Positions 12,072-63,334 of a stretch of DNA of 64,000 nucleotides are shown one piece after another. The stretch is taken from contig PSPX01000003.1 of the NCBI GenBank assembly GCA_004195715.1, forward strand, positions 5,232 through 69,231. The letters run 5' to 3'. Every line of letters starts with the position of its first letter. Position 1 is the first letter of the stretch. A model generated the notes under the pieces. It saw only the letters and a list, made by a program, of their open reading frames with translations. It searched no databases and was not told the DNA's origin. Origin of the DNA: Methanobacteriota archaeon (GTDB taxonomy: Archaea > Thermoplasmatota > Poseidoniia > Poseidoniales > Thalassarchaeaceae). The position numbers were made by a program, and so were the translations under genes.

Positions 12072-12127
12072 AGAATTGCTTTTGAAAGATGAAGTTTCAA
12101 GGTCATTTTCAAAAAGAAAATATGTAA

Positions 12128-13468
12128 TTATTGCTCAAACTTGCGATTTCGGCTGTTTATCGCTGCAAGTGCGATGGAGATGATTACCATGAGTATTGAG
12201 GGAGCAGGTAGCAGCCATCCTGAATCCTCCTCCTGCAGCTTCACCATACTGTTGTTGATTGGCTCGTTGACCCATAGGGCAGCGTCAATCACACGCTTTT
12301 GGTAATGCAGTTCGAAGTATCCCCCATCCACCATGCTCAGCTCGCTCGCATCGAGCTTAGCCTTGGTGTGGTTGCTAGCGTTGACGCTGAAGTTTCCTGA
12401 GTGCCACTGCACTTCGCCCGCCCCGTCGATATAGTGAAGGGTGGCATTTGCTGTACTAGCCCGTCCTAGATTGCTCACGCTTAGGTCTACGAAATTACCA
12501 CCGAACTCCAGCGAATCAACACTGAGTCGGGCACGCCAGTACCAGACATTTGAGATCAAGTAGCGCATCACCTCGAGTTCAAGCGCCAACCGGTCGCTGA
12601 CCTCCTGGAGGCTGCCGAGCAAGAACTGCTCGTCGTCAGTCTCGAAGGTGAAGCACGGATACCCCATCACCCCGTAGCCGTAGTCGCGGCTGGTGCCGTG
12701 AGTAGGATATATGCCGGCGTTGGCGTTGCGGATTGGTAACTCTCCATCGATATTCTCGTGGATGTCGTCGCGGATGAACTCGAAGAGTTCGTAGTCCGAG
12801 GGCATGTTGGGAGTGAAGCCCCACGGATAGGCGAGAATCCACGTCCCGGTATGCATGGTGACATAGAGGTCGGCATCGGTAACCCACTCATGCATGTAGG
12901 CGGCATTGTTACTGGTCTCGGGCTCACTGAAAGGACCGTCACCACTTGCCGTTTCGTCGGTGGTCCAGTGATGGTCATAATTTCGATTCAGATCGACTTG
13001 GTTCATATTCCAACGCGAGTCGACATCATTGCCGTCCGCATTGAGCAGAATCATGATGTGTAATTCGGTGTTCTGCAGCACCTCGATAGCCACGGGGTCG
13101 CTTTCACTCCAGCCCTCGATGTAGAACTCGGCGGTAAGGAAAGCAAGTTCTGTCCCGAGGTGTTCATTGCCGTGGTGGCCACCGTCGATGTACACTTTCT
13201 CCTTGGGTGACCCGTCACTCTTGTTCTCGACGGACCAGTCGGAGATTTGCACGACCCACTGCTGCCTACCGTACAGGGTCGTGCCCGCACTGACCAAACG
13301 GACGACCTCAGGGTAGTCATCCTCCCAGGCCTGGACATCGATTGTGAGTGTTGCATAGGAGTGGTACCAGTGCTCTTGGGTGAAGTCGGGCTGCTGGGCT
13401 GTTGCTATCGGAGCGGCTCCAGCAACGAGCAGAACGACGACAAGCGCCAGTGCAGACGTGCCTCTCAT
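12128..13468 (-). CDS. Secreted zinc carboxypeptidase (M14 family) with C-terminal membrane anchor
   Basis: 446 aa. Signal peptide MRGTSALALVVVLLVAGAAPIATAQQ. IDGGHHGNEH (HxxE zinc site), NADGNDVDSRWNMNQVDLNRNY. C-terminal hydrophobic helix plus basic tail LLPAPSILMVIISIALAAINSRNRKFEQ. Several N-x-S/T sequons. Confidence 0.8.
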   Translation of the reverse strand: MRGTSALALVVVLLVAGAAPIATAQQPDFTQEHWYHSYATLTIDVQAWEDDYPEVVRLVSAGTTLYGRQQWVVQISDWSVENKSDGSPKEKVYIDGGHHGNEHLGTELAFLTAEFYIEGWSESDPVAIEVLQNTELHIMILLNADGNDVDSRWNMNQVDLNRNYDHHWTTDETASGDGPFSEPETSNNAAYMHEWVTDADLYVTMHTGTWILAYPWGFTPNMPSDYELFEFIRDDIHENIDGELPIRNANAGIYPTHGTSRDYGYGVMGYPCFTFETDDEQFLLGSLQEVSDRLALELEVMRYLISNVWYWRARLSVDSLEFGGNFVDLSVSNLGRASTANATLHYIDGAGEVQWHSGNFSVNASNHTKAKLDASELSMVDGGYFELHYQKRVIDAALWVNEPINNSMVKLQEEDSGWLLPAPSILMVIISIALAAINSRNRKFEQ

Positions 13469-37065: not shown

Positions 37066-37194
37066 GCCACCCCATTGCCGCCGACTATTTCAGATGTTAT
37101 CCACCAACTCACTACAACTACGACTCCGCCGATAGGCCGGTTTGCTGAATAGTAATGATGAACTCGCAAGCACACAGGCGAGAGAGGCGATCGA

Positions 37195-39689: not shown

Positions 39690-39941
39690 TTAGTTTTCGT
39701 CCAAGGCCCCAGGTCTCAGTTGCCAGACACAGATTTCGTAGCGACCGGAGAGGGCACCGCCACGTTTTGTCGTTGCGACCTTCATGATGTCCTTGTCTTT
39801 AGACAGGACGTTCCCCAGTTGCTGGGGAGTAGTCCCATGACGCATGGTGGAGTTCACGTGCTCAAGAATCTCTGTCGTGTTGGCTTCTCCTCTGTCATCC
39901 AAGAATTTTTTTATCTTCTGTCGTAGTCTGGTTGTCCTCAT
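39690..39941 (-). CDS. Small winged-helix DNA-binding protein (83 aa)
   Basis: Basic N-terminal helix (RLRQKIKKFL), TTEILEHV, and a putative recognition helix/wing. Paralogous to the adjacent 88-aa ORF and to the N-terminus of the 873-aa protein. Confidence 0.4.
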   Translation of the reverse strand: MRTTRLRQKIKKFLDDRGEANTTEILEHVNSTMRHGTTPQQLGNVLSKDKDIMKVATTKRGGALSGRYEICVWQLRPGALDEN

Positions 39942-39951
39942 TTAATTCCTC

Positions 39952-40218
39952 CTATTTGTTGTCGGGCTTAGCACGCTCATGGTGCTGTACCCACTCCTTG
40001 GTCGCCCATTCCGAGAGTGGGGGGGTACTGCCGGTCATTCCGCTCTTGCGAACAGTTCCGATGCGGACGATACTCGTGTCTGTCTCCATCAGTGATGCTA
40101 GATCCAAGCTTCCAGAGTAGCCTTCCTGATCACTCAGCCAAGTTGCGATCTCAGCACTGTTCCTAGGCTGCTCAGAGATGTATTTGCGAATGATAAGTCG
40201 GATTTTTTCCACTTCCAT
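39952..40218 (-). CDS. Small winged-helix DNA-binding protein (88 aa), tandem paralog
   Basis: KIRLIIRKYISEQPRNSAEIATWLS... aligns with the 83-aa neighbour. Confidence 0.4.
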   Translation of the reverse strand: MEVEKIRLIIRKYISEQPRNSAEIATWLSDQEGYSGSLDLASLMETDTSIVRIGTVRKSGMTGSTPPLSEWATKEWVQHHERAKPDNK

Positions 40219-40472
40219 CTGTCTCCCTCAAGCATACTCTCGGACCCGGCAGTCGGCCCGATGCGCATAGGATGGCGGGCGCTGATATAACCGTTCTGCA
40301 CGAAATCACACCTTTTCGTTACAAATAGTTGCTAGAAATGAGGGAGTTTTCAGGTTTGAACCAAGTGTGGAAATGAAACTGATATATTCTCCATAGGAAA
40401 TATGTAATTAACTGTAACTAAACAACATAATTTAATACATCAACTTTAGTAAGATGTATTGAGAGGTGGCGA

Positions 40473-43094
40473 GTGGTGCCAAATGAATCCCCTGAGCCAC
40501 TGAAACCCGATTATTCAGGCAGTGCTTGGAAAATCAGGAGCAAGCATCGCAGGAGACTCCTTGACCGGCTAACTGAGGGCGGTGACACCGTCAGTGTGCT
40601 GGCTAGGGATGTTGAACTCAGGGTCCCGCACGCCTCAGCAGAGATAAAACGATTGAGAAACGATGGACTGGTCTCCAGCGACCTATCTGCTGGGAGTCGT
40701 GGAGCTAGGATTCACCTGACCGAATTGGGCTGGGAGTCAGTGAGTGCTGACGAGTGGTCCAGGGCATCCGAGGCCTCTCCCTTGCCCGAAGACTCTAGCA
40801 TGTGCTGCCTGCTGTTTCGTGATGGTCCAAACCTCCTGCTTGGAGTTATGGAGCCTTGCGACTCCCCATTACTGTTGATTCCGGATCGCCCCCCTGTTTC
40901 GATTCTGGGCAATTCTGGTTCCACCGGAAGCGATGGGGTCCTTTGGAGCTGGGCGGTACTCAGGGAGAGGGAACCCCGGTGGTTCGACCTCTCGTCAATG
41001 GAGCCCAAGCCAAGCCCTCCGCCTCCTTCCGATCCGGAGAACATAGCGGCTTACTCGGGACAGCGCACTGTCGTCGGGATAATCCGCGCTAGGCTGCTTG
41101 ACGCCGAGCGACCGATTGCCATAGCGCCGGGTCAGTGGTTCGGGTCTCCGGACTTCCGGCCCGCGCCCCCGTTGCCTGAGGGCGGCTATCATCGGGGCCC
41201 GTGGGTACTTGGTGCGTGCCACGAGATGTCACCGGAGATTAGGCCGAAGGAACCAGTGGTCGCTGTGATGGAAGACAGGCTCCCCCGCTCCATGCTGCTT
41301 AGGACAGCGAGGAATAATTCTCTGGTCATCGCGGATCTCGGAGGGCTGGACACCGAGGGTGACCCGTACCCATTGGCAGCCCTTGACCCATGGATCGAAA
41401 GGGCCCACCCGCGTCTGAGCGATGCTGAGAGGAAACGGAGACTAGGTGCCCTGAAGGACAGGGTCAGCAAGGCGAGAAAGGTCAGGACCGAGGATTCCAC
41501 CTGGCGTCGATTCAGACAAGATTGGGGTGAGTCGGTGTTCACCGAGGAAGGAGATTCAATCAGGATCCTTGACCTAAGGGGGCTGGGTGACACGGCGGCT
41601 GAGGCATTAGTGAGATGGGCAATCAATGACGATGGCAAACGCCCGCTGACTATCGAAGTCGGGGTTGATATGCCCGAGGAACTAATCTCTTCAATCGCTT
41701 CTCACTCCAATCTCCGAATGGCTCTCCTCGAGGGTGAAGCATCTGCGTTCTCCAGCTTCGACATACTGGATGCTGATCCCCTGAGGCCGCTGCCTTGGCT
41801 GCGCCTGACAACTAGGGGGGGGAGGGTACTGCCAATGCGACTGGTCGATCCAGCCCAGGTCCCTGAGTTTTCAGAATCCGATGAACCGGTCGTACTAGAG
41901 TGGGAATCCCTAGGCATCGACATCGAGTTGGTCGGGAATATCGAAGAGGGCCACCTCTCAGTCATCAATTCAGCTGTAGTTCAATATCCCACAGGCAATG
42001 AGGAGTGGGCCAACCAAATGGAAGCCAGATACCCAATTGCGGCTTGGATAGCATCTCCCGCTAGGACTAGATGGCCACGCTGGCAGAGACTCAGGAACCG
42101 ACTCAGTCCGGAGTGGCTAGCACTCATGAATCTGGACGACCTCCCGCTGGAGAGGCTGTCAGAGGTCGCCGACGAGGCACCCGACTCGGTTTTGGAAGAA
42201 TTCTCCAAGAAGATTACCAACAGATTCAGACAGGATTCCGATGCAGCACTCAGAACGAGACCAGCGACGGATCCGAAGCAAGCAACCCGCGGAGCCGCTT
42301 GGGTAGCAGCTCAACTGCTGTCAAACGCCCCCTGGCTACCTGAGCACATGCACTCGGACTTGCTCCATTGGGCACTGGAGGCATGGCTCTCCGAGCCCCC
42401 AAGCGATTCGATGCCTGCACTGCAGGGAGTCGCGTGGCTTTATTCTCCGGGCCGCAGCGATGAATCCAGTTTCAGACCAATACTTGAGGGGATTCGGAGC
42501 AAGGGAAAGGAATCTCCTTCTGGCCATGACCTGCACACTTGGGCCAGCCTAGCAGACATGATGCTGGACGATTCGAAGATGAATCTCGATGAATTGGAGA
42601 GAATACTGGAACTACCTCCCGGCTGGTGGGCACCGATTTCCGTCAAGATACTCTCTGGGCTATTGGAGGAGGAGGATTCTACAGATTGGGTCATCGCCAA
42701 TACCGTCCCCTGGTGTGCGGCAGTGCTGCGTCCGATAGGCGATTGCTGTCAGGCACCCGGACTCCGTTCCTACGAGCATCCCGGATGCGACTCAGAACTG
42801 TACTCCCGCCTTTCCCGGAGGTTGAGGGGCAGGCGTGAGCGTCAGGGCATGCCCGATACCGCTGAACCACTGCTCGATTTACTCGACGCCCTAGACGCGG
42901 TGAATGATGGCAAATCTCCTTCGCCGGGAAAGACGCATCCCCTATCGGGGTGGCTCGCCCAGCCGTTGGAGAAATGGCCGGAGTTCTCTTCGTCCGAGAT
43001 CATGGACGGCGATGTTCACATCACTGAGAGGCTGCTCTTGAGGAGCTCAGGGTATCATCCAAAAATCGTCCCTTCAATCTCGATTTCGGGTTGA
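40473..43094 (+). CDS. Large orphan protein (873 aa) with N-terminal winged-helix domain
   Basis: GTG start preceded by GAGGTGG. N-terminus KIRSKHRRRLLDRLTEGGDTVSVLARDVELRVPHASAEIKRLRNDGLV is the same wHTH family as the two small upstream proteins. The remainder has no recognizable catalytic motif, with a Cys cluster near the C-terminus (WCAAVLRPIGDCCQAPG...HPGC). Confidence 0.5.
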   Translation: MVPNESPEPLKPDYSGSAWKIRSKHRRRLLDRLTEGGDTVSVLARDVELRVPHASAEIKRLRNDGLVSSDLSAGSRGARIHLTELGWESVSADEWSRASEASPLPEDSSMCCLLFRDGPNLLLGVMEPCDSPLLLIPDRPPVSILGNSGSTGSDGVLWSWAVLREREPRWFDLSSMEPKPSPPPPSDPENIAAYSGQRTVVGIIRARLLDAERPIAIAPGQWFGSPDFRPAPPLPEGGYHRGPWVLGACHEMSPEIRPKEPVVAVMEDRLPRSMLLRTARNNSLVIADLGGLDTEGDPYPLAALDPWIERAHPRLSDAERKRRLGALKDRVSKARKVRTEDSTWRRFRQDWGESVFTEEGDSIRILDLRGLGDTAAEALVRWAINDDGKRPLTIEVGVDMPEELISSIASHSNLRMALLEGEASAFSSFDILDADPLRPLPWLRLTTRGGRVLPMRLVDPAQVPEFSESDEPVVLEWESLGIDIELVGNIEEGHLSVINSAVVQYPTGNEEWANQMEARYPIAAWIASPARTRWPRWQRLRNRLSPEWLALMNLDDLPLERLSEVADEAPDSVLEEFSKKITNRFRQDSDAALRTRPATDPKQATRGAAWVAAQLLSNAPWLPEHMHSDLLHWALEAWLSEPPSDSMPALQGVAWLYSPGRSDESSFRPILEGIRSKGKESPSGHDLHTWASLADMMLDDSKMNLDELERILELPPGWWAPISVKILSGLLEEEDSTDWVIANTVPWCAAVLRPIGDCCQAPGLRSYEHPGCDSELYSRLSRRLRGRRERQGMPDTAEPLLDLLDALDAVNDGKSPSPGKTHPLSGWLAQPLEKWPEFSSSEIMDGDVHITERLLLRSSGYHPKIVPSISISG

Positions 43095-43454
43095 AAGCCA
43101 GTAAATATCTGACCGAGGGGTTCTTGACCACCCCCCATGGCCGATGTTTGCCCGAGCTGCAACACCGTGGCGACGAAGCCCCCCGCTGGAGGAATAGGAT
43201 GAATCACGGTACCAAGTTCGGGTCACCACTTGCCGAAGACCAGTGTGACCAGCTGCAACGGAATGATCACTGGAGCAAATCAAGTGGCCGGATTGTGTTA
43301 GGTCCCCCGATGACCGGAAGGAATGACTCAAGGGACTACCCCACAGTTCGACAGACGTCCCGGGGTGGGTCAGGCGCCCGAGCTTTGCTGTGAAGGACCG
43401 CCGTTACGCCCCGGGGCACACACACTCCATTTGTCCAAAAAAGGCGGGAATCTG

Positions 43455-44471
43455 ATGCACGACATCGGCCTAATCGGCGGCACCTTTGACCGCTTCCATG
43501 CCGGACACCTATCGCTGATGGAGGCCGGTCTGTCCAAATGCTCCTTCATTGAGGCCTGGCTCACCGCAGATAGCCTTGCTCACTCGAAGGATCCGCGGGT
43601 GAATTCATGGGGTACAAGGGCTCAGGAGATGAAGGAGGCGTTGGGGGACGATGCTGGCAGAGTTAGATTCCATACCCTCGAAGATAACCACGGACCCGCA
43701 CCGGCGCATGCTGATGCCACAGCGATTATTTGCACCGGCGAGACCCGCGCCGAGTGTGAGGAAATTAACCGACTAAGAGAAGGCAGCGACCTGCCACCGC
43801 TACACATCATCAGCGTAGGACACGTACTCGCATGGGACGACAAGCCGATATCCAGCTCTAGAATCAGAGCAGGAGAGATCGACCGTAACGGAAAACCATG
43901 GATTCCAAACTCGATTAGGGCGGGCAGAGTGGTCTTGACATCCCAGATCGAAGCAGAACTCAAGGAGCCCTTCGGTCAGTTGGTTTCTGGCCCGGAAGAC
44001 AATCCCTCCGTTGCAATGACAGAAGTCCTCACCCATGTCGAAGGGGAGTCGGGGCCGGTCATCGCTGTCGGCGATGTGACAGTCCGCACTCTGCAGGACC
44101 TCAATCGGCCAGCCGACATCGCCCTCATCGATGGACTCACTAGGAGGGAGCCTTGGGAGGGCGCAGACGGAATCGACTCGTCTCTGTATGACAAGACCCT
44201 GCAGTGTTCCAGCCCTGCTGGTTCCCTGACGCCTTCGTTGCTGGAGGCCTGTGAGCGGGCAATGAAATCCTGGAAGGAAGGGCGGTTAACCCATCTAATT
44301 CAGGTCGAAGGTGAGGAAGATCTAGCCCCACTTATTTTGCATCCACTGGCTCCCTTGGGTGCTGTTGTGCTATATGGCCAACCAGGAAAAGGAGTCGTAG
44401 TCAGATGGTGTGGAGAGGACGCCAAACAGCGTTGTCGCAGACTGCTCAGCGAATTCGTTCCCGCCGAATGA
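43455..44471 (+). CDS. Bifunctional CoA biosynthesis protein: archaeal-type phosphopantetheine adenylyltransferase fused to a DUF359-type GTP-dependent dephospho-CoA kinase
   Basis: Conserved start MHDIGLIGGTFDRFHAGH (nucleotidyltransferase H-x-G-H) at ATG 43455. C-terminal half has VIAVGDVTV...ALIDGLTRRE...QVEGEEDLAPL...VVLYGQP blocks of DUF359 / archaeal DPCK. Confidence 0.65.
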   Translation: MHDIGLIGGTFDRFHAGHLSLMEAGLSKCSFIEAWLTADSLAHSKDPRVNSWGTRAQEMKEALGDDAGRVRFHTLEDNHGPAPAHADATAIICTGETRAECEEINRLREGSDLPPLHIISVGHVLAWDDKPISSSRIRAGEIDRNGKPWIPNSIRAGRVVLTSQIEAELKEPFGQLVSGPEDNPSVAMTEVLTHVEGESGPVIAVGDVTVRTLQDLNRPADIALIDGLTRREPWEGADGIDSSLYDKTLQCSSPAGSLTPSLLEACERAMKSWKEGRLTHLIQVEGEEDLAPLILHPLAPLGAVVLYGQPGKGVVVRWCGEDAKQRCRRLLSEFVPAE

Positions 44472-45060: not shown

Positions 45061-46299
45061 TCAGAGTTGACCCTGCAGGTTGTATCTGCCGAGCGCGGCC
45101 TCGGCAATCATAGGTTCACTCTCACTCATTGTAGCGATGGCGTCCACCGCCTTGGGTATGGCCGAGTTGACCTGTTTACTCCTACCGCCGCGGCCCTTGC
45201 TGACGTTCCTAGCCATAATCAGCCCGAGCGTATCGAGTTCGTTGAGCAGCGAAGATATCCTCCTAGGGGTGAGCGGCTCGACACTGATCTTCATGCATGC
45301 TTCGGCATAAGTCCGGTAAGTCTCCCCAGTGGAGATGTTCCTCAGGCCGTTATCTTCGTTCATCCTAATTGAGAATAGCAACAACTTTTGGTGCAGTGGC
45401 AGAGTCTTCAGCACAGGAGTAACTTGGTCGTACTCCAACTGACTCTGCGCCAATCTGACGTGCCTGGGGTCTACAACCTTCTGAGCTCGCTGCTCTGCCT
45501 TCTGCACTGAGATGCGTAACAGGTCGAGCGCTCTGCGCGCGTCCCCGTGCTCCTGTGCGGCCAGTGCCGAGCAGAGTTCGAGCACACCAGAATCGAGGAC
45601 CCCCTCGCGAAGACCGGTGCTAACACGCTCGGTTAGGATGTCCTGAATCTCTGGAGCCCCGTAGGGGTGGAAGACGACATCCTCCTGACTGAGCCTCGAG
45701 CTGACCCGAGGATCGAGCTGCTGAGTGAAGTGCAGATCGTTGCTGATCCCGATGAGACAGCAGCGGGCGTTTTTCAGAGAGGTATTCAAGCTGGTCAGGT
45801 TGTACAGCAAACCATCTCCAGCTCTGGCCACGAGATTGTCGATCTCGTCCAGCACTAGAATGTGCACCCCTCCTGCCCGATCCATCCTCTCAATCAGAAC
45901 TTCGAGAACCCTGTCGGTGGGCCAACCGGTGAATGGGATTGGAGTATCTCCCCGTCGAGCGAGTTGGGAGGCGATACTCTGAACGACGCGATACTTGGTG
46001 TCCACGACACGGCAGTTGATCTCGTAGGTCTCAACGCTCTGCCCCATCTCCTTGCCCTTGTCGAGAAGCTGCCCTAAGACGAATCTTGTGACCACGGTTT
46101 TGCCTGACCCGGGTACTCCATAGAGCAGCATGTTCGAAGGGATGTGGCCATTCAAGGCATCAACCATATTGCGTACCAAAGCATCCACTTCGTGTTCTCT
46201 GTGAGGCAGGGTAGATGGCTCGAAGGCGTGATCAAACGCTCGCCTGTCGACGAAGAGACTGTCTTGCCCGAGAATCTTTTCGAAAATGTTTCCTTCCAT
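45061..46299 (-). CDS. cdc6: Orc1/Cdc6 replication initiator
   Basis: 412 aa. LLYGVPGSGKT (Walker A), VLDEID (Walker B), sensor regions, and a C-terminal winged helix. Confidence 0.9.
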   Translation of the reverse strand: MEGNIFEKILGQDSLFVDRRAFDHAFEPSTLPHREHEVDALVRNMVDALNGHIPSNMLLYGVPGSGKTVVTRFVLGQLLDKGKEMGQSVETYEINCRVVDTKYRVVQSIASQLARRGDTPIPFTGWPTDRVLEVLIERMDRAGGVHILVLDEIDNLVARAGDGLLYNLTSLNTSLKNARCCLIGISNDLHFTQQLDPRVSSRLSQEDVVFHPYGAPEIQDILTERVSTGLREGVLDSGVLELCSALAAQEHGDARRALDLLRISVQKAEQRAQKVVDPRHVRLAQSQLEYDQVTPVLKTLPLHQKLLLFSIRMNEDNGLRNISTGETYRTYAEACMKISVEPLTPRRISSLLNELDTLGLIMARNVSKGRGGRSKQVNSAIPKAVDAIATMSESEPMIAEAALGRYNLQGQL

Positions 46300-46700
46300 T
46301 TTCTTTCACCAAGGGTCCAGTCGCGTATCCAGCTCCCTCTTACTCTGGTCGAGTAGGTGTCGGCGAACGCGGATTCTCAGCGAGGGTGCAGGGGGTAATA
46401 AGACTGTCCGAGAAGAACGAAATCTTGCTTGATTATCATGCCCTCTAATGCCTCAGTACCATGGCCCTCTAACATCCGCCTAAGAACTCTCTTAGTTGTA
46501 CTCAGTCAGGCTTTTTTATCAATATAATTTCAGTGTATTTATTGCATCTAATTCATTCATTCATGTATTTCTCCCGCCCCTGTCACTATGGCAAGTGATC
46601 GAACCTGCCGAGGCTTCTTCGACAGCGATATTCGACACTATCTCTGTGAACTACTCAGGGCTCCGATGTAAGCTAATATAAAACAAGATAAATTATTCAC
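46300..46700. other. Candidate replication origin (oriC): AT-rich intergenic region adjacent to orc1/cdc6
   Basis: ~400-bp non-coding region, markedly AT-rich at 46510-46575 (DUE-like). Direct repeats GCCCTCTAA x2 (46441-46473). Palindrome CTAAGAactcTCTTAG (46480-46495). ORB-like dyad TCACTatggcaAGTGA next to a C/G-string CTCCCGCCCC (46571-46598). Confidence 0.45.
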
Positions 46701-60263: not shown

Positions 60264-61010
60264 TCAGTCGTTAGTCACTCGGGGCGCTAGGAAGTACGTC
60301 CAACTCGCTCCGCCATCATTACTGTTCCAGTCCAGCCTCAATGGGTACTTGTCTTGAAACTGCATACGAATGTCTTGGGTCAATCCAGAGGCGAGTTTCC
60401 TCGTCAGAGGGTCGAGGAATTGCAGGCTGTAGGTGCCTTGGGTAGGCGAGGGGCAGACCAACTCGCTGAGTTCACCGGACTCGAAGCGTACATTGACTCC
60501 TTCGCCAGCCTCAACGGTCACGCTTATCCGCAGCTCCTTACTGTCAAGGCTTAGATCTACTAACTCACCTACAAACTTGGCCGCCCTGAGTGCTCTGGAG
60601 AGCTTCTCCGCCCCGATGGCGGCACTGCAGTCGAAATCAAGAACTGGAAGTTTAGGTTCCTGCATGGAACCGGTGTCGAGTCCGCGCAGTATTCTGTGGA
60701 CCTCGCCGACTCTTACATTGACTGCTCCGACCGCGTCATCGTAGTCAATTTCGACCAGGTCGCCCGGGCCAGCGAGAGTCAGGAGGTCACGCAGTTTGCC
60801 TAGTTCCAGTCCAATTTCGACCGGCTCGACTTCGTAGGTCTCGAAGCAGGCGTCTGAGATGGTAGCGCTAAGGAGGGCAACGTGAGAACCGTCGACAACG
60901 TTCACTGTCAGTCCTTTCTCTCCCCAGCTCAACTTCGCTTCTTCGGTCAGGACCGAGAGCAAATCGACAATCTCCCTCATCAGTTGAGTATTTGCCGTCA
61001 CTCTCAGCAT
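60264..61010 (-). CDS. pcn: DNA polymerase sliding clamp PCNA
   Basis: 248 aa. Two-domain PCNA fold with N-terminus MLRVTANTQLMREIVDLLSVLTEEAKLSWGEKGLTVNVVD. Confidence 0.9.
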   Translation of the reverse strand: MLRVTANTQLMREIVDLLSVLTEEAKLSWGEKGLTVNVVDGSHVALLSATISDACFETYEVEPVEIGLELGKLRDLLTLAGPGDLVEIDYDDAVGAVNVRVGEVHRILRGLDTGSMQEPKLPVLDFDCSAAIGAEKLSRALRAAKFVGELVDLSLDSKELRISVTVEAGEGVNVRFESGELSELVCPSPTQGTYSLQFLDPLTRKLASGLTQDIRMQFQDKYPLRLDWNSNDGGASWTYFLAPRVTND

Positions 61011-61068
61011 GGAATCACCTCGTTACATATCTCCTATAAATCGAAGGTCTTTCATTCATTCGGGACAC

Positions 61069-61449
61069 TTATTGGTATTCTCGGAAACGCTTGTCACAAT
61101 TTTTGCATTGGCAAATTTTAGTTTCTGGTTCATCACTTGACCTAGTTTGCTTGAGTTCGACGAATATCTCGTTACAATCACACACAGGGCAGCGAATGTC
61201 CCCCACTCTGAGAGTACCTCGAGCTATTTCCGGCTCAACGACTTCGGTTAAATGCTTGAGCGATTTTTCATCGCCTGTGGCAGTGGCGCTGGTCAGATCC
61301 ACCGTCTCTCCAGTCATCGGGTCGGTGAAAGTGCCTCCTGAACCGTCTCTGCCAGTCAGAGGTCCCTCGTATTTACACTGGTAATTGTCGCATCTGATGT
61401 TCCCTGAAGAATCGGGGTATGACAGTGCACCACATTCAGGACAAAACAC
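61069..61449 (-). CDS. tfs: Transcription factor S (TFS) / RNA polymerase subunit M
   Basis: 126 aa. N-terminal Zn ribbon CPECG...CDNYQC and C-terminal TFIIS-type ribbon CPVCDCNE...QTRSSDEPETKICQCKNC with the acidic hairpin. Confidence 0.9.
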   Translation of the reverse strand: MFCPECGALSYPDSSGNIRCDNYQCKYEGPLTGRDGSGGTFTDPMTGETVDLTSATATGDEKSLKHLTEVVEPEIARGTLRVGDIRCPVCDCNEIFVELKQTRSSDEPETKICQCKNCDKRFREYQ

Positions 61450-61614
61450 CGCTATCGAACACCTAGTCGGTTAAACGCCAACCGAACAGCGACATCCAAA
61501 CCATCTATTGAACTATCGCTTATGCGCACCAGTGGAAAAGCCCGAACTCAGTCCCTATTGAGCGACTTAAATGGGACCGCACCGTTGAAGCGAAGCCGGC
61601 ACTACGGAGTAATC

Positions 61615-62616
61615 ATGCGTATTCACTACGATTGGAGGCTTGCTAGAGTCGTCGATTCCGACGGCGAAGTCTTTGACGAGTTGGGTTGGTCGCCCAAAAG
61701 GTCTGTCCGCGCTTTGGCAGACCGACTGTCAGACCTGCAATCGGGCAGGATGAGCCCCGAGGCGAGAACCCTCAGTAAGAGATTCCCGGATGCTGAGGCG
61801 GATGGAATGGCGGCGATGTCGGACCCCGACTGGCCCGAGCTTGAGGCTGAGGAACAAGAGATGCTCTCTGAGGCAGCGGCTATACTGGCCAAGCGAGGAG
61901 TGGCCGATGCCGCTGCCGACCTCGACCGACGACTCGACATGCTGTCTTCGGCGGCGATTGAACTGAGGTCATCGTGGACCACCAGTGAGGCGAGATGTAT
62001 CGAATGGGCAGGGCTGTTTTTGTCCGAGGTGGATTTAGATGGGCAGAGGCGAGAAATTCCAGCAGCTGTAGCTGAGGCTGAATCGATTGATGCAGTCGCT
62101 GTCGCACTCGATGTCGCAACCCCCGCACACCAGCCCGAGCAGGCCGAGTGGGTGGCCTTGAATGGCCATGCGGTTGGCGTTGTTGCTCTGGCAGAGAGGC
62201 TGGGAGTGGCCGAGGCGGCCACGCGTGAACTCGCGCGTCAGTACGTACCCACCCTGAGTATGCTAGTCGGCCCGTTAGGAGCTGCTAGGCTAGTGGTGTT
62301 AGCAGGAGGTCGCGAGAGACTGGCCAGAATGCCGAGCGGCAGCCTACAGGTCCTCGGGACCCGTGGTGCCATGGCTGCCCATCGCAGGGGCGCTCCCTCG
62401 CCCAAGCATTCGCCCGTTCTGTTCTCTCTGCCACAGGTCTCGAGATCTCCTCGATGGGTCAGGGGAAAGATTGCCCGATACATGGCTGGTAAGTGTTCGA
62501 TTGCGGTTCGCGTCGATCACTTCGACGGCGAGTCGTGGAGTGAGGAAAGGATAGCAGAGATCAACCAAGAGTGCGAGAACATCCGCGAGAGGTTCCCAAA
62601 GCCACCAAGGAGGTGA
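61615..62616 (+). CDS. C/D box snoRNP protein Nop5 (Nop56/58 homolog)
   Basis: The ORF runs from 61522, but the conserved start MRIHYDW... is at ATG 61615. C-terminal Nop domain: LVGPLGAARLVVLAGGRERLARMPSGSLQVLGTRGAMAAHRRGAPSPKHSPVLFSLPQV...RGKIARYMAGKCSIAVRVD. Confidence 0.85.
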   Translation: MRIHYDWRLARVVDSDGEVFDELGWSPKRSVRALADRLSDLQSGRMSPEARTLSKRFPDAEADGMAAMSDPDWPELEAEEQEMLSEAAAILAKRGVADAAADLDRRLDMLSSAAIELRSSWTTSEARCIEWAGLFLSEVDLDGQRREIPAAVAEAESIDAVAVALDVATPAHQPEQAEWVALNGHAVGVVALAERLGVAEAATRELARQYVPTLSMLVGPLGAARLVVLAGGRERLARMPSGSLQVLGTRGAMAAHRRGAPSPKHSPVLFSLPQVSRSPRWVRGKIARYMAGKCSIAVRVDHFDGESWSEERIAEINQECENIRERFPKPPRR

Positions 62617-62620
62617 GAGG

Positions 62621-63334
62621 TTGGCGCGTAAGCCAGTAAAACTCGCTTGGGGGGTCCGTCGTGAGGGTCGTTCTCTGTGGACTAGGAACGCCGTTCGCGG
62701 AGTCTCAGTCAGAGGCGAGCGCAGAAAGACGGATTCTCGAATAGAATGGAGGTCTTGGGATCCCACGCGCTCCAAGGTCGCAGCAGCCCTGCTGCGAACC
62801 AACGGCGACCCCTCGAGGCTGCTTCCAGAGACAGGCTCGACATGCCTCTATCTGGGTGCGTCGTTCGGCTCTACAGTTTCACACATACACGACCAAGTCT
62901 GTGGATCTCAAAATCACCACGGAGGACAAGTCGTGGCAGTGGAGATAGCTCCTCGAGCTATGCGCGACCTGTCGGAACTGTCTTGCCGCAGGCCCGGACT
63001 CGTCCCTGTTCTCGGCGATGCTAGGCAGCCACAGACAATAGCTCCCTACATCCGCAGTCAGGCAGACTGGATGCATCAGGACCTCAGTATCGCAGATCAG
63101 GCCAAGACCTTCGTTAGAATGGCCGGTGCGTTTCTCAGACCCGGCGGCACTGGTCTGTTGTCACTGAAGGCGGCAAGCGAGAGATCTTCGGACGGCGATG
63201 ACGACAGCAGGTTCGCGAAGGCCGCGAAGATACTCCAAGAGTCCAACCTCGAAGTGGTCGAAAGAATCGACCTGAAAGGGCTCGAAGAACAGCACGTTGT
63301 TTTCCTAGTTAGGAAGACAGCCCATTCAGGTTAA
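62621..63334 (+). CDS. flpA: Fibrillarin-like rRNA/tRNA 2'-O-methyltransferase
   Basis: 237 aa. RIEWRSWDPTRSKVAAALL, CLYLGASFGSTVSHIHD, VVAVEIAPRAMRDL, VPVLGDARQP. Confidence 0.9.
   Translation: MARKPVKLAWGVRREGRSLWTRNAVRGVSVRGERRKTDSRIEWRSWDPTRSKVAAALLRTNGDPSRLLPETGSTCLYLGASFGSTVSHIHDQVCGSQNHHGGQVVAVEIAPRAMRDLSELSCRRPGLVPVLGDARQPQTIAPYIRSQADWMHQDLSIADQAKTFVRMAGAFLRPGGTGLLSLKAASERSSDGDDDSRFAKAAKILQESNLEVVERIDLKGLEEQHVVFLVRKTAHSG

What the first reader, a model, noticed from the sequence alone, without database searches (positions are those of the whole stretch)
40219..40472. 254-bp AT-rich spacer with repeated GAAATG motifs upstream of the 873-aa gene
This is the most AT-rich stretch in the window, in a genome that is otherwise ~58% GC. 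It contains at least three GAAATG-type repeats (cGAAATcac at ~40301, aGAAATGAGGGAG at ~40336, gGAAATGAAACTG at ~40371, gGAAATATGTAAT at ~40397) and several TA-rich tracts. It is flanked divergently by the wHTH paralogs. This is consistent with iterated operator sites for those wHTH proteins. Less likely, it could be an unwinding element.
Basis: seen in the sequence. Interest (0 to 1): 0.5.

Follow-up and report, generated by a model that had tools for sequence, protein, structure and literature searches.

The report
Conserved promoter hub, candidate replication origin
The AT-rich spacer is a control region conserved across Marine Group II archaea, with two back-to-back promoters and initiator-type binding motifs, and it is the best local candidate for the chromosome's replication origin; the GAAATG repeats themselves are mostly chance.

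Summary
The window comes from a Marine Group II archaeon (Thalassarchaeaceae, Poseidoniales).

**Observation.** The spacer 40219-40472 is the most AT-rich stretch of the window. GAAAT does occur four times. That count is not beyond chance once the free choice of motif is allowed for (P about 0.13). Only one of the four copies is conserved.

**What is conserved.** The spacer keeps its length and a set of sequence blocks in more than 30 genomes. Their GC content ranges from 37 to 60%, and the flanking 873-aa protein falls to about 30% identity.
- Two TATA-type promoter elements.
- Two inverted pairs of TGTAAC-type hexamers.
- The dyad TCCAnnnGAAA, which is the core of archaeal origin recognition boxes (ORBs).

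**Second ORB.** A full ORB lies 448 bp downstream, inside the 873-aa gene at 40920-40939. It matches the published consensus at 17-20 of 20 positions in every lineage. It is the only place where synonymous codon positions are frozen. An Orc1-1-type cdc6 gene lies 4.1 kb away, and its own upstream region has no ORB.

**Reading.** This is a bidirectional promoter and operator hub bound by Orc1/Cdc6. It is probably the origin or part of it (about 0.5).

The parts
39690..39941 (-). DUF3860a gene: 83 aa, basic (pI 9.8), winged helix, extremely conserved
   Evidence: PF12976, E 3.7e-39. PDB 2OD5, E 2.9e-30. 95-100% amino-acid identity across the 28 loci. At least 83% identity in the top 120 database hits. 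AF2 model pLDDT 81, winged-helix fold. pI.
39952..40218 (-). DUF3860b gene: 88 aa, divergent paralog, absent in several lineages
   Evidence: PF12976, E 3.3e-20. No DUF3860b match in L026. Only one DUF3860 gene is called next to the spacer in L029, L031 and L032. The spacer motifs persist in those lineages.
40219..40262 (-). Predicted 5' UTR of the DUF3860b-a operon: SD-like GAGGGAG, a hairpin at about 40240-40262, conserved ATCG at the predicted start
   Evidence: Minus-strand alignment A2. Per-sequence folds place a hairpin at the same position in most lineages, but with modest z-scores. The TSS position is inferred from the TATA distance, not shown.
40268..40284 (.). Conserved GC-rich block (TAGGrTGrCGGG) between the left TATA and the predicted TSS; function unknown
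   Evidence: Invariant or near-invariant columns in A1 across the 22 aligned genomes. Not conserved in L029, L031 or L032.
40285..40300 (-). Leftward promoter core: TTATAT (rc of ATATAA, 40285-40290) with upstream AGAA (rc of TTCT, 40294-40297)
   Evidence: ATATAA and TTCT are invariant in all 8 representative lineages and in 22 of 22 genomes. The TATA/BRE assignment is inferred from archaeal promoter architecture.
40300..40319 (.).
   Evidence: Read from the sequence. L010 carries ACGAAT...ATTCGT, a compensatory change. Replaced by AACT...AGTT in the low-GC group. Weak evidence.
40318..40332 (-). Left hexamer pair GTTACA-N4-GTTGC (minus strand: GCAAC-N4-TGTAAC)
   Evidence: GTTACA is invariant in 22 of 22 genomes and in all 8 distant lineages. 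It forms an inverted repeat with 40406-40422 (I1).
40333..40365 (.).
   Evidence: Least conserved part of the spacer (0.51-0.73 mean column identity).
40366..40382 (+).
   Evidence: 15 of 20 to the published Thermococcaceae ORB motif (P = 0.014 within the spacer). Only partly conserved.
40388..40402 (.).
   Evidence: TCCA and GAAA are invariant in 22 genomes. TC.A...GAAA is invariant order-wide. 13-14 of 15 to the published Thermococcaceae mini-ORB regex (motif from PMC4164010). It is the only exact TCCANNNGAAA in the window.
40403..40418 (+). Right hexamer pair TGTAAT-N4-TGTAAC, 10-bp spacing, abutting the dyad and 12 bp upstream of the right TATA
   Evidence: Invariant TGTAA and TGTAAC. Unique in the 64-kb window. 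TAAC and T.TAA are kept order-wide.
40427..40439 (+). Rightward promoter core: A-rich BRE-like run plus TTTAATAC TATA box for the 873-aa gene
   Evidence: Conserved AATT and AATACA. The TATA-to-start-codon distance is 34 nt in both group A and group C.
40402..40462 (.). AT core (21% GC), candidate duplex-unwinding element; overlaps the right hexamer pair and the TATA box
   Evidence: Composition. The DUE role is inferred.
40463..40475 (+). SD GAGGTGG and GTG start of the 873-aa gene
   Evidence: Sequence. GGAG is conserved.
40473..43094 (+). 873-aa protein: N-terminal MarR/ArsR-like winged HTH plus a large domain of unknown fold
   Evidence: Weak HTH_20/HTH_5 matches. AF2 pLDDT 61. Foldseek matches only the N-terminal wHTH. 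Homologs were found only in Marine Group II / Poseidoniales records.
40920..40939 (+). Canonical full ORB TCCACCGGAAGCGATGGGGT embedded in codons S150-V156 of the 873-aa gene
   Evidence: 17 of 20 to the published Common ORB motif; the only hit of 16 or more in the window. 17-19 of 20 at the same position in 24 loci. 20 of 20 in L031, 18 in L029 and L032, 17 in L033. Of 146 invariant degenerate-codon columns, only S150 (TCC) and G155 (GGG) have an invariant codon; other genes give 2 of 526.
45061..46299 (-). orc1/cdc6 gene, Orc1-1 type
   Evidence: Pfam Cdc6 lid and winged-helix domains. Best PDB relatives are A. pernix ORC1 2V1U (7e-89) and S. solfataricus Orc1-1 2QBY_A (3e-84), against Orc1-3 at 9e-39.

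Best explanation
The spacer is a compact bidirectional control region conserved across the order Poseidoniales.

**Promoters.** It carries two archaeal TATA-type promoters. One points left to the DUF3860b-DUF3860a operon. The other points right to the 873-aa winged-HTH protein.

**Protein-binding elements between and upstream of the promoters.**
- Two inverted pairs of TGTAAC-type hexamers.
- A dyad with the core of an archaeal origin recognition box (TCCAnnnGAAA).

**Link to replication.** A canonical full ORB lies 448 bp downstream inside the 873-aa coding sequence. An Orc1-1-type initiator gene lies 4.1 kb beyond it.

**Proposed mechanism.** Orc1-1 binds the full ORB, and more weakly or cooperatively the spacer dyad. 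The 60-bp, 21%-GC core next to the dyad (40402-40462) is the easiest DNA to open in the region. The locus then acts as the chromosomal replication origin or as part of it. The same sites, together with the TGTAAC hexamers bound by one of the locally encoded winged-helix proteins, couple transcription of the two divergent units to initiator occupancy.

**Shown:** the conservation, the motif matches, the synonymous-site constraint, and the gene identities.

**Inferred:** the transcription start sites, which protein binds which element, DNA unwinding, and origin activity.
For: 1. Conservation.
- The spacer is 252-255 bp in the 26 loci that carry DUF3860b (241 bp in L026). Genome GC in these loci ranges from 37 to 60%.
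- Its nucleotide identity (0.63-0.87) equals or exceeds that of most flanking coding genes.
- The core blocks are invariant in 22 genomes. They persist in lineages whose 873-aa ortholog is only about 30% identical.
- Spacer GC stays at 31-43% whatever the genome GC. The AT-richness is therefore conserved sequence, not compositional drift.

2. Not an RNA. The RNAalifold consensus is -8.9 kcal/mol with 1 covarying pair. The neighbouring RNA candidate gives -85.6 kcal/mol with 18 covarying pairs. There is no Rfam hit.

3. Promoters. ATATAA and TTTAATAC are invariant. The TATA-to-start-codon spacing is a fixed 34 nt in groups A and C, with a conserved SD.

4. ORB.
- 40920-40939 matches the published Common ORB motif TCCA[CG]T[TG]GAAA[TC][GA]AAGGGGT (PMC4164010) at 17 of 20 positions with identical spacing.
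- It is the only hit of 16 or more in 64 kb; shuffles give 0.13 hits of 17 or more per window.
- The same position scores 17-19 of 20 in 24 loci, 20 of 20 in L031 and 17-18 in L029, L032 and L033.

5. Nucleotide-level selection. Only 2 of 146 invariant four- or six-fold-degenerate columns of the 873-aa alignment have an invariant codon. Both lie in the ORB. Seven neighbouring genes give 2 of 526.

6. Spacer dyad. It is invariant. It scores 13-14 of 15 against the published Thermococcaceae mini-ORB regex; only 4% of 500 shuffles reached the window's 13, and none reached L026's 14.

7. Initiator. The cdc6 is closest to the ORB-bound structures 2V1U and 2QBY_A.

8. No competing ORB site. The cdc6 upstream region has no ORB-like element, is poorly conserved and varies in length.

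9. Skew. The cumulative G-C minimum of the window is at 37.1 kb. This is weak evidence.

10. Precedents. Intragenic ORB clusters lie next to oriC and cdc6 in Pyrococcus (PMC1904270). A small sequence-specific protein binds an essential non-ORB motif inside Sulfolobus oriC1 (PMC12141716).
Against: - Only one full ORB and one mini-ORB were found within about 6-8 kb. Characterised Orc1-1 origins have two or more ORBs in inverted orientation flanking a DUE of about 100 bp. In Sulfolobus, loss of either ORB abolishes activity (PMC12141716).
- Here the two elements are 530 bp apart (start to start). The polarity of the palindromic dyad cannot be read.
- The full ORB is not adjacent to orc1-1 but 4.1 kb from its 3' end.
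- The spacer dyad is only moderately ORB-like in any single genome (P 0.01-0.1). Its left half degenerates to TTCT or TTCG in distant lineages.
- The AT core is itself made of conserved promoter and hexamer motifs. A DUE is usually free to vary.
- In low-GC genomes the spacer is not more AT-rich than other intergenic DNA.
- The GC-skew signal in 64 kb is weak, and its minimum lies 3 kb away.
- No binding, TSS or replication data exist for this uncultured lineage.
Confidence: 0.5

Rival explanations
1. The spacer is purely a transcriptional control region. The conserved hexamer pairs, the dyad and the palindromes are operators for the locally encoded winged-helix proteins (DUF3860a/b and the N-terminal wHTH of the 873-aa protein). 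These proteins auto-regulate and cross-regulate the two divergent units. The origin lies elsewhere, for example upstream of cdc6 at 46300-46696. The intragenic ORB is then an accessory or regulatory Orc1 site.
For: - The TGTAAC pairs sit in the same orientation upstream of each TATA box, 12 bp and 27 bp away. That is typical placement for archaeal regulators.
- DUF3860a and the motifs are both ultra-conserved and always adjacent.
- All three flanking proteins have winged-helix DNA-binding folds.
- The cdc6-upstream region is AT-rich, variable in sequence and adjacent to orc1-1, as classic origins are.
- Accessory ORB clusters outside the origin proper are known (PMC1904270; PMC4010727).
Against: - The cdc6-upstream region has no ORB-like motif in any lineage and shrinks to about 210 bp in some.
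- The only canonical ORB within 6-8 kb is 448 bp from the spacer and is under nucleotide-level selection.
- The invariant spacer dyad has the ORB core.
- The motifs survive loss of DUF3860b, so that protein at least is not the essential binder.
Confidence: 0.38
2. The spacer encodes a small non-coding RNA or a conserved structured leader. On this reading the conservation reflects RNA structure rather than protein-binding DNA.
For: - The noncoding conservation is very high.
- A hairpin recurs at the same place in the predicted 5' UTR of DUF3860b, with different stem sequences in different lineages.
- The long-range complementarity GTTACA...TGTAAC could pair in an RNA.
Against: - RNAalifold gives -8.9 kcal/mol over 254 nt on the plus strand with 1 covarying pair.
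- It finds no consensus pairs in the 86-nt leader segment of the minus strand.
- The paired blocks never vary, so they carry no covariation.
- There is no Rfam hit even at E up to 10.
- Hairpin z-scores are modest, about -1 on average.
- A real structured RNA 2.7 kb away shows what a positive looks like: 67 pairs, 18 covarying.
Confidence: 0.04
3. The spacer is an ordinary AT-rich intergenic region in a GC-rich genome. On this reading the GAAAT copies and other repeats are chance products of its composition.
For: The count of four GAAAT copies is matched by some pentamer in 13-15% of shuffles. The 13-mer shared with 12118 is at chance level (P = 0.22).
Against: Length and sequence blocks are conserved across more than 30 genomes and two deep lineages, with genome GC from 37 to 60%. 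This is true for the GAAATG repeat as such, but false for the region.
Confidence: 0.02

Closest known systems
Orc1-1-dependent archaeal origin oriC1 (Sulfolobus ORB3-DUE-ORB2 with the ucm/UBP element; PMC12141716)
   Same: - ORB of the canonical type (TCCA...GAAA...GGGGT).
- Orc1-1-type initiator gene nearby.
- AT-rich segment.
- Additional short invariant non-ORB motifs inside or next to the AT-rich segment.
- A small basic DNA-binding protein as a possible partner: here DUF3860a, 83 aa, pI 9.8, encoded next door.
   Different: - Only one full ORB, and it is inside a coding sequence.
- The second element is a mini-ORB 530 bp away (start to start), whereas the whole Sulfolobus ORB3-DUE-ORB2 region spans 130 bp.
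- Not adjacent to orc1-1.
- DUF3860 is a winged helix, unlike the saddle-shaped beta-hairpin UBP.
- No functional data.
Pyrococcus/Thermococcales oriC with a second ORB and mini-ORB cluster inside the dp1 gene (PMC1904270)
   Same: - An ORB embedded in a protein-coding gene within a few kb of cdc6 and conserved in related genomes.
- Both mini-ORB and long ORB forms are present.
- The spacer elements resemble the Thermococcaceae motifs (13-16 of 15-20 positions).
   Different: - In Pyrococcus the main cluster with inverted long ORBs lies directly upstream of cdc6.
- Here the cdc6 upstream region has no ORB at all.
Haloarchaeal accessory ORB clusters (Haloarcula hispanica oriC2 downstream cluster; PMC4010727)
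   Same: Cdc6-binding elements outside the minimal origin, with a proposed regulatory role.
   Different: - Those are clusters of several ORBs next to a defined ARS.
- Here there is a single ORB, and no defined origin to be accessory to.
Archaeal divergent BRE/TATA promoters controlled by winged-helix regulators (MarR, ArsR and Lrp-type; general knowledge)
   Same: - Two TATA elements about 145 bp apart facing outward.
- Conserved short repeats and palindromes directly upstream of or overlapping the promoters.
- Winged-helix proteins encoded on both sides.
   Different: - The degree and phylogenetic depth of conservation: order-wide, exceeding the coding flanks.
- The ORB-type dyad is unusual for an ordinary operator region.

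Membership tests
Archaeal ORB / Orc1-1-type replication origin | Sequence match to the ORB consensus (dyad TCCA..GAAA plus G-string GGGGT at fixed spacing) | tested here: met
   40920-40939 scores 17 of 20 against the published Common motif with the same spacing. Other lineages score 17-20 of 20. The spacer dyad matches only the mini-ORB core: 13-14 of 15, no G-string.
Archaeal ORB / Orc1-1-type replication origin | Two or more ORBs in inverted orientation flanking an AT-rich DUE of roughly 100 bp | tested here: not met
   One full ORB and one palindromic mini-ORB lie 530 bp apart (start to start). No conserved inverted full-ORB partner was found within -6 to +8 kb. The inverted elements that do flank a variable 70-bp centre are TGTAAC hexamer pairs, not ORBs.
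Archaeal ORB / Orc1-1-type replication origin | AT-rich, easily melted segment | tested here: met
   40402-40462 is 21% GC. It lies within the lowest-GC 100-bp stretch of the 64 kb.
Archaeal ORB / Orc1-1-type replication origin | Adjacency to the cognate orc1/cdc6 gene | tested here: inconclusive
   An Orc1-1-type cdc6 is at 45061-46299, 4.1 kb from the ORB. Three genes and an RNA candidate lie between them. The synteny is conserved.
Archaeal ORB / Orc1-1-type replication origin | Extremum of nucleotide disparity (GC skew) | tested here: inconclusive
   The cumulative G-C minimum of the window is at 37130, and the curve is flat afterwards. 64 kb is too short, and gene-strand effects were not removed.
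Archaeal ORB / Orc1-1-type replication origin | Initiator binding, initiation point, ARS activity or marker-frequency peak | not testable with these tools
   The lineage is uncultured and no experimental data are held.
Archaeal BRE/TATA promoter pair | Conserved TATA-like octamer at a fixed distance from the gene start, with a purine-rich element upstream | tested here: met
   Right: TTTAATAC at 40431-40438, 34 nt from the start codon in groups A and C, A-rich upstream. Left: TTATAT plus AGAA, invariant order-wide. The BRE match on the left is imperfect.
Archaeal BRE/TATA promoter pair | Transcription start about 25 nt downstream of the TATA box | not testable with these tools
   No transcript data. 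Conserved ATCG lies at the predicted leftward start.
   For GAAATG: P(any pentamer reaches 4 or more copies) = 0.13-0.15, and 1 of 4 copies is conserved. For TGTAAC-type hexamer pairs the feature is met: they are invariant, unique in the window and conserved order-wide.
   Only the folds could be checked. DUF3860a is a winged helix. The 873-aa N-terminus is a MarR/ArsR-like wHTH.
Structured non-coding RNA | Conserved secondary structure supported by covariation | tested here: not met
   -8.9 kcal/mol with 1 covarying pair on the + strand. No consensus pairs in the 86-nt leader segment on the - strand. No Rfam hit.

The most novel reading that the evidence does not exclude
The spacer is the core of the Poseidoniales chromosomal origin, and it works with lineage-specific winged-helix factors in addition to Orc1-1.
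- The ultra-conserved, basic 83-aa DUF3860a, and/or the 873-aa wHTH protein, both encoded on either side of it, bind the inverted TGTAAC hexamer pairs that flank the variable centre.
- They would act as origin accessory or co-initiator proteins. DUF3860a would be a functional analogue of Sulfolobus UBP/ucm or of WhiP at oriC3.
- The canonical ORB has been pushed into the coding sequence of one of these factors. That sequence therefore carries a dual code: a protein linker and an initiator site.
Probability: 0.15. Interest if true: 0.75.

Novelty: new member of a known kind. Interest (0 to 1): 0.52.

Why it matters
Marine Group II archaea are among the most abundant archaea of the surface ocean, and none has been cultured. 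I found no described replication origin for them in the paper library.

- **A testable origin candidate.** A sequence-defined candidate, with a diagnostic ORB conserved from 37 to 60% GC genomes, gives an anchor for growth-rate estimates from metagenome coverage (peak-to-trough ratios). It also helps orient and close assemblies.
- **A clean example of dual coding.** An initiator site is maintained at synonymous positions inside a protein-coding gene.
- **An open question becomes testable.** The Sulfolobus UBP study asks whether other archaeal lineages have small sequence-specific proteins working at their origins (PMC12141716). The ultra-conserved DUF3860 winged-helix protein and the 873-aa protein become concrete candidates.
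- **If the origin reading fails.** The region is still one of the most conserved noncoding control regions of the order. It controls a structural-genomics orphan (PDB 2OD5) of unknown function.

Tried and rejected
- **Sigma-70 promoter and intrinsic terminator scan:** nothing found, and not applicable to an archaeon.
- **Rfam on the spacer:** only chance-level hits outside it.
- **RNA structure of the spacer and of the leftward leader:** no consensus structure. Single-sequence hairpins have modest z-scores.
- **GAAATG as an enriched repeat:** rejected by shuffles and by conservation.
- **Origin directly upstream of cdc6 (46300-46696):** no ORB-like elements, poor conservation, variable length.
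- **Exact TCCANNNGAAA count in the window:** a single hit against 1.74 expected, so uninformative by itself.
- **13-mer AAATATGTAATTA shared with the AT-rich region at 12118:** chance level, P = 0.22.
- **Second AT-rich region at 60.9-61.2 kb with two TCGTTACA copies:** this is the PCNA/TFS junction. No comparative data were available, so it was not pursued.
- **Fold of the 873-aa protein:** only the N-terminal wHTH is recognisable. The C-terminal helical domain has no PDB match, so it gives no clue to a replication role.
- **Literature on DUF3860:** none found.
- **Literal-sequence paper search for an ORB string:** returned only unrelated primer hits.
- **Papers on Marine Group II origins:** nothing specific.
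- **Polarity of the spacer dyad:** it scores similarly on both strands, so its orientation relative to the full ORB is unresolved.
Full report
**Context.** The window is 56.4% GC and comes from a Marine Group II archaeon. The closest loci are Thalassarchaeaceae / Candidatus Thalassarchaeum MAGs. Around the finding the gene order is:
- glpX (+), then class-I FBP aldolase (+);
- DUF3860a (39690-39941, -) and DUF3860b (39952-40218, -);
- the spacer 40219-40472;
- an 873-aa protein (40473-43094, +);
- a conserved noncoding stretch, then PPAT/DUF359 (+) and a 211-aa ORF with no Pfam match (-);
- orc1/cdc6 (45061-46299, -);
- an AT-rich intergenic region, then a metallo-beta-lactamase-fold gene (-).

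This order is kept in 28 genome loci. It is also kept in four further lineages fetched later.

**The observation.** The spacer is 41.7% GC. The lowest-GC 100-bp and 150-bp stretches of the window (40363-40462, 25%; 40313-40462, 28.7%) lie inside it. GAAAT occurs at 40302, 40335, 40370 and 40397 on the + strand, and two of these are GAAATG. In dinucleotide-preserving shuffles that particular pentamer rarely reaches four copies (P about 0.001). Some pentamer does so in 13-15% of shuffles, and no hexamer is enriched. A repeat chosen after reading is therefore not beyond chance. Across 22 aligned genomes only the copy at 40397 is kept, as GAAA in 22 of 22. The copy at 40302 survives in the two higher-GC groups. 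The copies at 40335 and 40370 keep GAAAT in 5 of 22.

**What is conserved instead.**
- The spacer is 252-255 bp in the 26 loci that carry DUF3860b (241 bp in L026). Genome GC in these loci ranges from 37 to 60%, and the 873-aa protein is only 45-60% identical between groups.
- Its nucleotide identity between groups (0.63-0.87) matches or exceeds that of most flanking coding sequences.
- Its GC stays at 31-43% regardless of genome GC. The AT-richness seen in this GC-rich genome is therefore a consequence of conserved AT-rich motifs, not drift.

Blocks identical in at least 90% of the 22 genomes:

| Coordinates | Block |
|---|---|
| 40259-62 | CGAT |
| 40268-71 | TAGG |
| 40276-79 | CGGG |
| 40285-90 | ATATAA |
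| 40294-300 | TTCTGCA |
| 40318-23 | GTTACA |
| 40328-32 | GTTGC |
| 40390-93 | TCCA |
| 40397-400 | GAAA |
| 40403-07 | TGTAA |
| 40413-18 | TGTAAC |
| 40429-32 | AATT |
| 40434-39 | AATACA |

An eight-lineage alignment includes genomes whose 873-aa ortholog is only about 30% identical. In it ATATAA, TTCT, TT.GTTACA, TC.A...GAAA, T.TAA, TAAC and the right TATA region are still invariant. The conserved blocks are contiguous rather than three-periodic, so they are not coding.

**Not an RNA.** The consensus fold of the + strand is -8.9 kcal/mol with one covarying pair. Its long-range pairs (GTTACA with TGTAAC) never vary and so say nothing for or against a structure. The 86-nt leftward leader segment gives no consensus pairs. 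Single-sequence folds do place a hairpin at the same spot in most lineages, with different stems, such as GGGCCC/GGGCCC in L010 and GTGGCC/GGCCAC in L026. Rfam finds nothing in the spacer. For comparison, the noncoding stretch at about 43150-43425 gives -85.6 kcal/mol with 18 covarying pairs.

**Promoters (inferred).**
- *Rightward.* TTTAATAC (40431-38) is preceded by an A-rich run. It lies 34 nt from the start codon in both group A and group C. GGAG of the SD is conserved. A start near 40461 would give a short SD-bearing leader.
- *Leftward.* On the minus strand AGAAsnG-TTATAT is invariant order-wide. A start near 40262, within conserved ATCG, would give a 44-nt leader containing the hairpin and GAGGGAG.
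- In lineages without DUF3860b this promoter faces DUF3860a directly.

**Iterated elements.** The repeated unit is a TGTAAC-type hexamer in two pairs with 10-bp spacing. On the minus strand this is GCAAC-N4-TGTAAC (40332-40318), and on the plus strand TGTAAT-N4-TGTAAC (40403-40418). The two pairs form the inverted repeat found (I1). Each points toward its own TATA box, 27 bp and 12 bp away. The composite is unique in the 64-kb window.

**ORB-type elements.** The invariant T.TCCAnnnGAAA at 40388-40400 has the core shared by archaeal origin recognition boxes. Three papers define that core:
- 'TCCA-GAAAC' is common to all families in Ori-Finder 2 Table 1 (PMC4164010).
- 'TTCC' and 'GAA' are the perfectly conserved core in Pyrococcus (PMC1904270).
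- The euryarchaeal consensus is GTTCCAGTGGAAAC-AAA----GGGGG (PMC1868953).

Against the published Thermococcaceae mini-ORB regex the spacer dyad scores 13-14 of 15. Only 4% of 500 shuffles reached the window's 13, and none reached L026's 14. It lacks a properly spaced left arm and is only partly conserved.

Scanning the related loci for the dyad revealed a second, much stronger element at +447 of the 873-aa gene. In the window this is 40920-40939, TCCACCGGAAGCGATGGGGT. It matches the published Common ORB motif TCCA[CG]T[TG]GAAA[TC][GA]AAGGGGT at 17 of 20 positions with identical spacing. It is the only hit of 16 or more in the window, and shuffles give 0.13 hits of 17 or more per window. The same position scores 17-19 of 20 in all 24 loci tested. 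In the distant lineages it scores 20 of 20 (L031, TCCAGTGGAAACGAAGGGGT), 18 of 20 (L029, L032) and 17 of 20 (L033).

The element encodes S-[TI]-G-x-[DE]-G-V, in a segment the AF2 model leaves at low confidence (residues 129-166).

The decisive control is synonymous variation. Among 146 alignment columns with an invariant four- or six-fold-degenerate amino acid in 23 genomes, only two have an invariant codon. These are S150 (TCC) and G155 (GGG), and both lie inside the ORB. Seven neighbouring genes give 2 of 526 such columns. The DNA element itself is therefore under selection.

**Initiator and alternatives.** The cdc6 product is closest to the two Orc1 proteins crystallised on ORB DNA: A. pernix ORC1 2V1U (7e-89) and S. 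solfataricus Orc1-1 2QBY_A (3e-84). Its match to Orc1-3 is far weaker, at 9e-39. Its own upstream region (46300-46696) has no ORB-like motif, is poorly conserved (identity 0.36-0.65) and shrinks to about 210 bp in some genomes. The cumulative G-C curve of the window falls to a minimum at 37.1 kb and is flat afterwards. This is compatible with a nearby origin, but it is weak evidence.

**Flanking proteins.**
- *DUF3860a* is 83 aa and basic (pI 9.8). It is 95-100% identical across the 28 loci and at least 83% identical in the top 120 database hits. It has a solved orphan structure, 2OD5. It models as a winged helix with weak similarity to forkhead, Z-alpha, TFE and BlaI domains.
- *DUF3860b* is a 16%-identical paralog. 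It is dispensable for motif conservation.
- *The 873-aa protein* has a MarR/ArsR/SmtB-like wHTH at residues about 20-100. Its confident C-terminal helical domain has no PDB match.

**Interpretation.** Three statements hold with decreasing certainty.
1. The spacer is a functional, order-wide conserved bidirectional control region made of protein-binding-type DNA motifs (about 0.9).
2. Orc1-1 binds the intragenic ORB and probably the spacer dyad (about 0.7-0.8 for the ORB, about 0.5 for the dyad).
3. The spacer, with its 21%-GC core at 40402-40462, is the origin or part of it (about 0.5).

The main objection to the third statement is architectural. Characterised Orc1-1 origins have two inverted ORBs flanking a DUE, the whole region spanning about 130 bp, and both ORBs are needed (PMC12141716). 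Here there is one full ORB and one palindromic mini-ORB 530 bp apart (start to start). The inverted elements that flank the variable centre are TGTAAC pairs of unknown specificity.

Two precedents soften the objection. ORB clusters lie inside the dp1 gene next to oriC in Thermococcales (PMC1904270). In Sulfolobus oriC1 an essential non-ORB motif is bound by a small basic protein (PMC12141716). The authors of that study ask whether other lineages have analogous proteins. DUF3860a is an obvious but untested candidate.

The AT-richness and the coordinates are right. The GAAATG repeat is not the signal. "Iterated operator sites" is right in kind, but for different motifs and probably for a different protein at the dyad. 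The lower-ranked "unwinding element" idea deserves at least equal weight.

**Novelty.** ORBs, Orc1-1 origins and archaeal divergent promoters are all known kinds. This would be a new member in an uncultured, ecologically dominant order. Its unusual features are an intragenic ORB under dual constraint, an origin candidate not adjacent to orc1-1, and TGTAAC hexamer pairs of unknown binder.

Noticed in passing
window 43150-43425 (+), between the 873-aa gene stop (43094) and the likely true PPAT start (about 43455): A structured-RNA candidate of about 280-330 nt. Nucleotide identity between genome groups A and B is 84-91%, higher than for any coding gene nearby. RNAalifold gives -85.6 kcal/mol with 67 pairs, 18 of them with compensatory double changes. 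The low-GC group carries a 24-nt hairpin insertion. There is no Rfam match at gathering threshold or at E up to 1.
   Followed up: partly
window 43323-43454 (+): The first 44 codons of the 382-aa PPAT/DUF359 ORF are probably not coding. tblastn matches break frame there in several genomes, and the region belongs to the conserved RNA candidate. The real start is probably the ATG of MHDIGLIGG at 43455.
   Followed up: partly
window 39690-39941 (-): DUF3860a (PF12976, PDB 2OD5) is extraordinarily conserved. It is 95-100% identical in amino acids where neighbouring enzymes are 70-80% identical and the 873-aa protein about 50%. It is at least 83% identical in the top 120 database hits. It is basic, has a winged-helix fold and has no known function. 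This conservation suggests a core chromatin or information-processing role.
   Followed up: partly
window 40010-40018 and 40236-40244: A perfect 9-nt complementarity links the predicted 5' UTR of DUF3860b (UCCGAGAGU) to its own coding region near the 3' end (ACUCUCGGA). The coding-region arm includes codon S69 (TCG), one of only two invariant codons found among 526 degenerate columns in seven neighbouring genes. This could be a long-range mRNA pairing.
   Followed up: no
window 46300-46696: The cdc6-to-MBL intergenic region lacks ORB-like motifs. It does carry an invariant GGTAATAAG (46393-46401; on the cdc6 strand CTTATTACC, a likely TATA region about 95 nt upstream of the cdc6 start). It also has a conserved TATATAA..AAGTTAAT block at its far end. 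A direct repeat CATGnCCCTCTAA occurs twice (about 46438 and 46461) in the close relatives only.
   Followed up: partly
window 60264-63334: A cluster of information-processing genes, identified by eye from the translations: PCNA (60264-61010, -), a TFS/RpoM-like zinc-ribbon protein (61069-61449, -), Nop5/Nop56-like (61522-62616, +) and fibrillarin (62621-63334, +). TCGTTACA, as in the spacer, occurs 10 nt upstream of the PCNA start and again at 61168.
   Followed up: no
L029 7614-7633 (reverse-complement coordinates), inside the ortholog of the 873-aa gene: A second ORB-like element on the opposite strand (TTTACTGAAAATGAAGGGGT, 17 of 20) lies about 2 kb into the gene. It was seen in L029 and did not reach 15 of 20 in L031 or L032. 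It may be chance or a lineage-specific inverted partner.
   Followed up: no
window 12118-12130 and 40398-40410: The 13-mer AAATATGTAATTA is shared by the two most AT-rich regions of the window. Shuffling gives P = 0.22 for such a match, so it is probably chance.
   Followed up: yes
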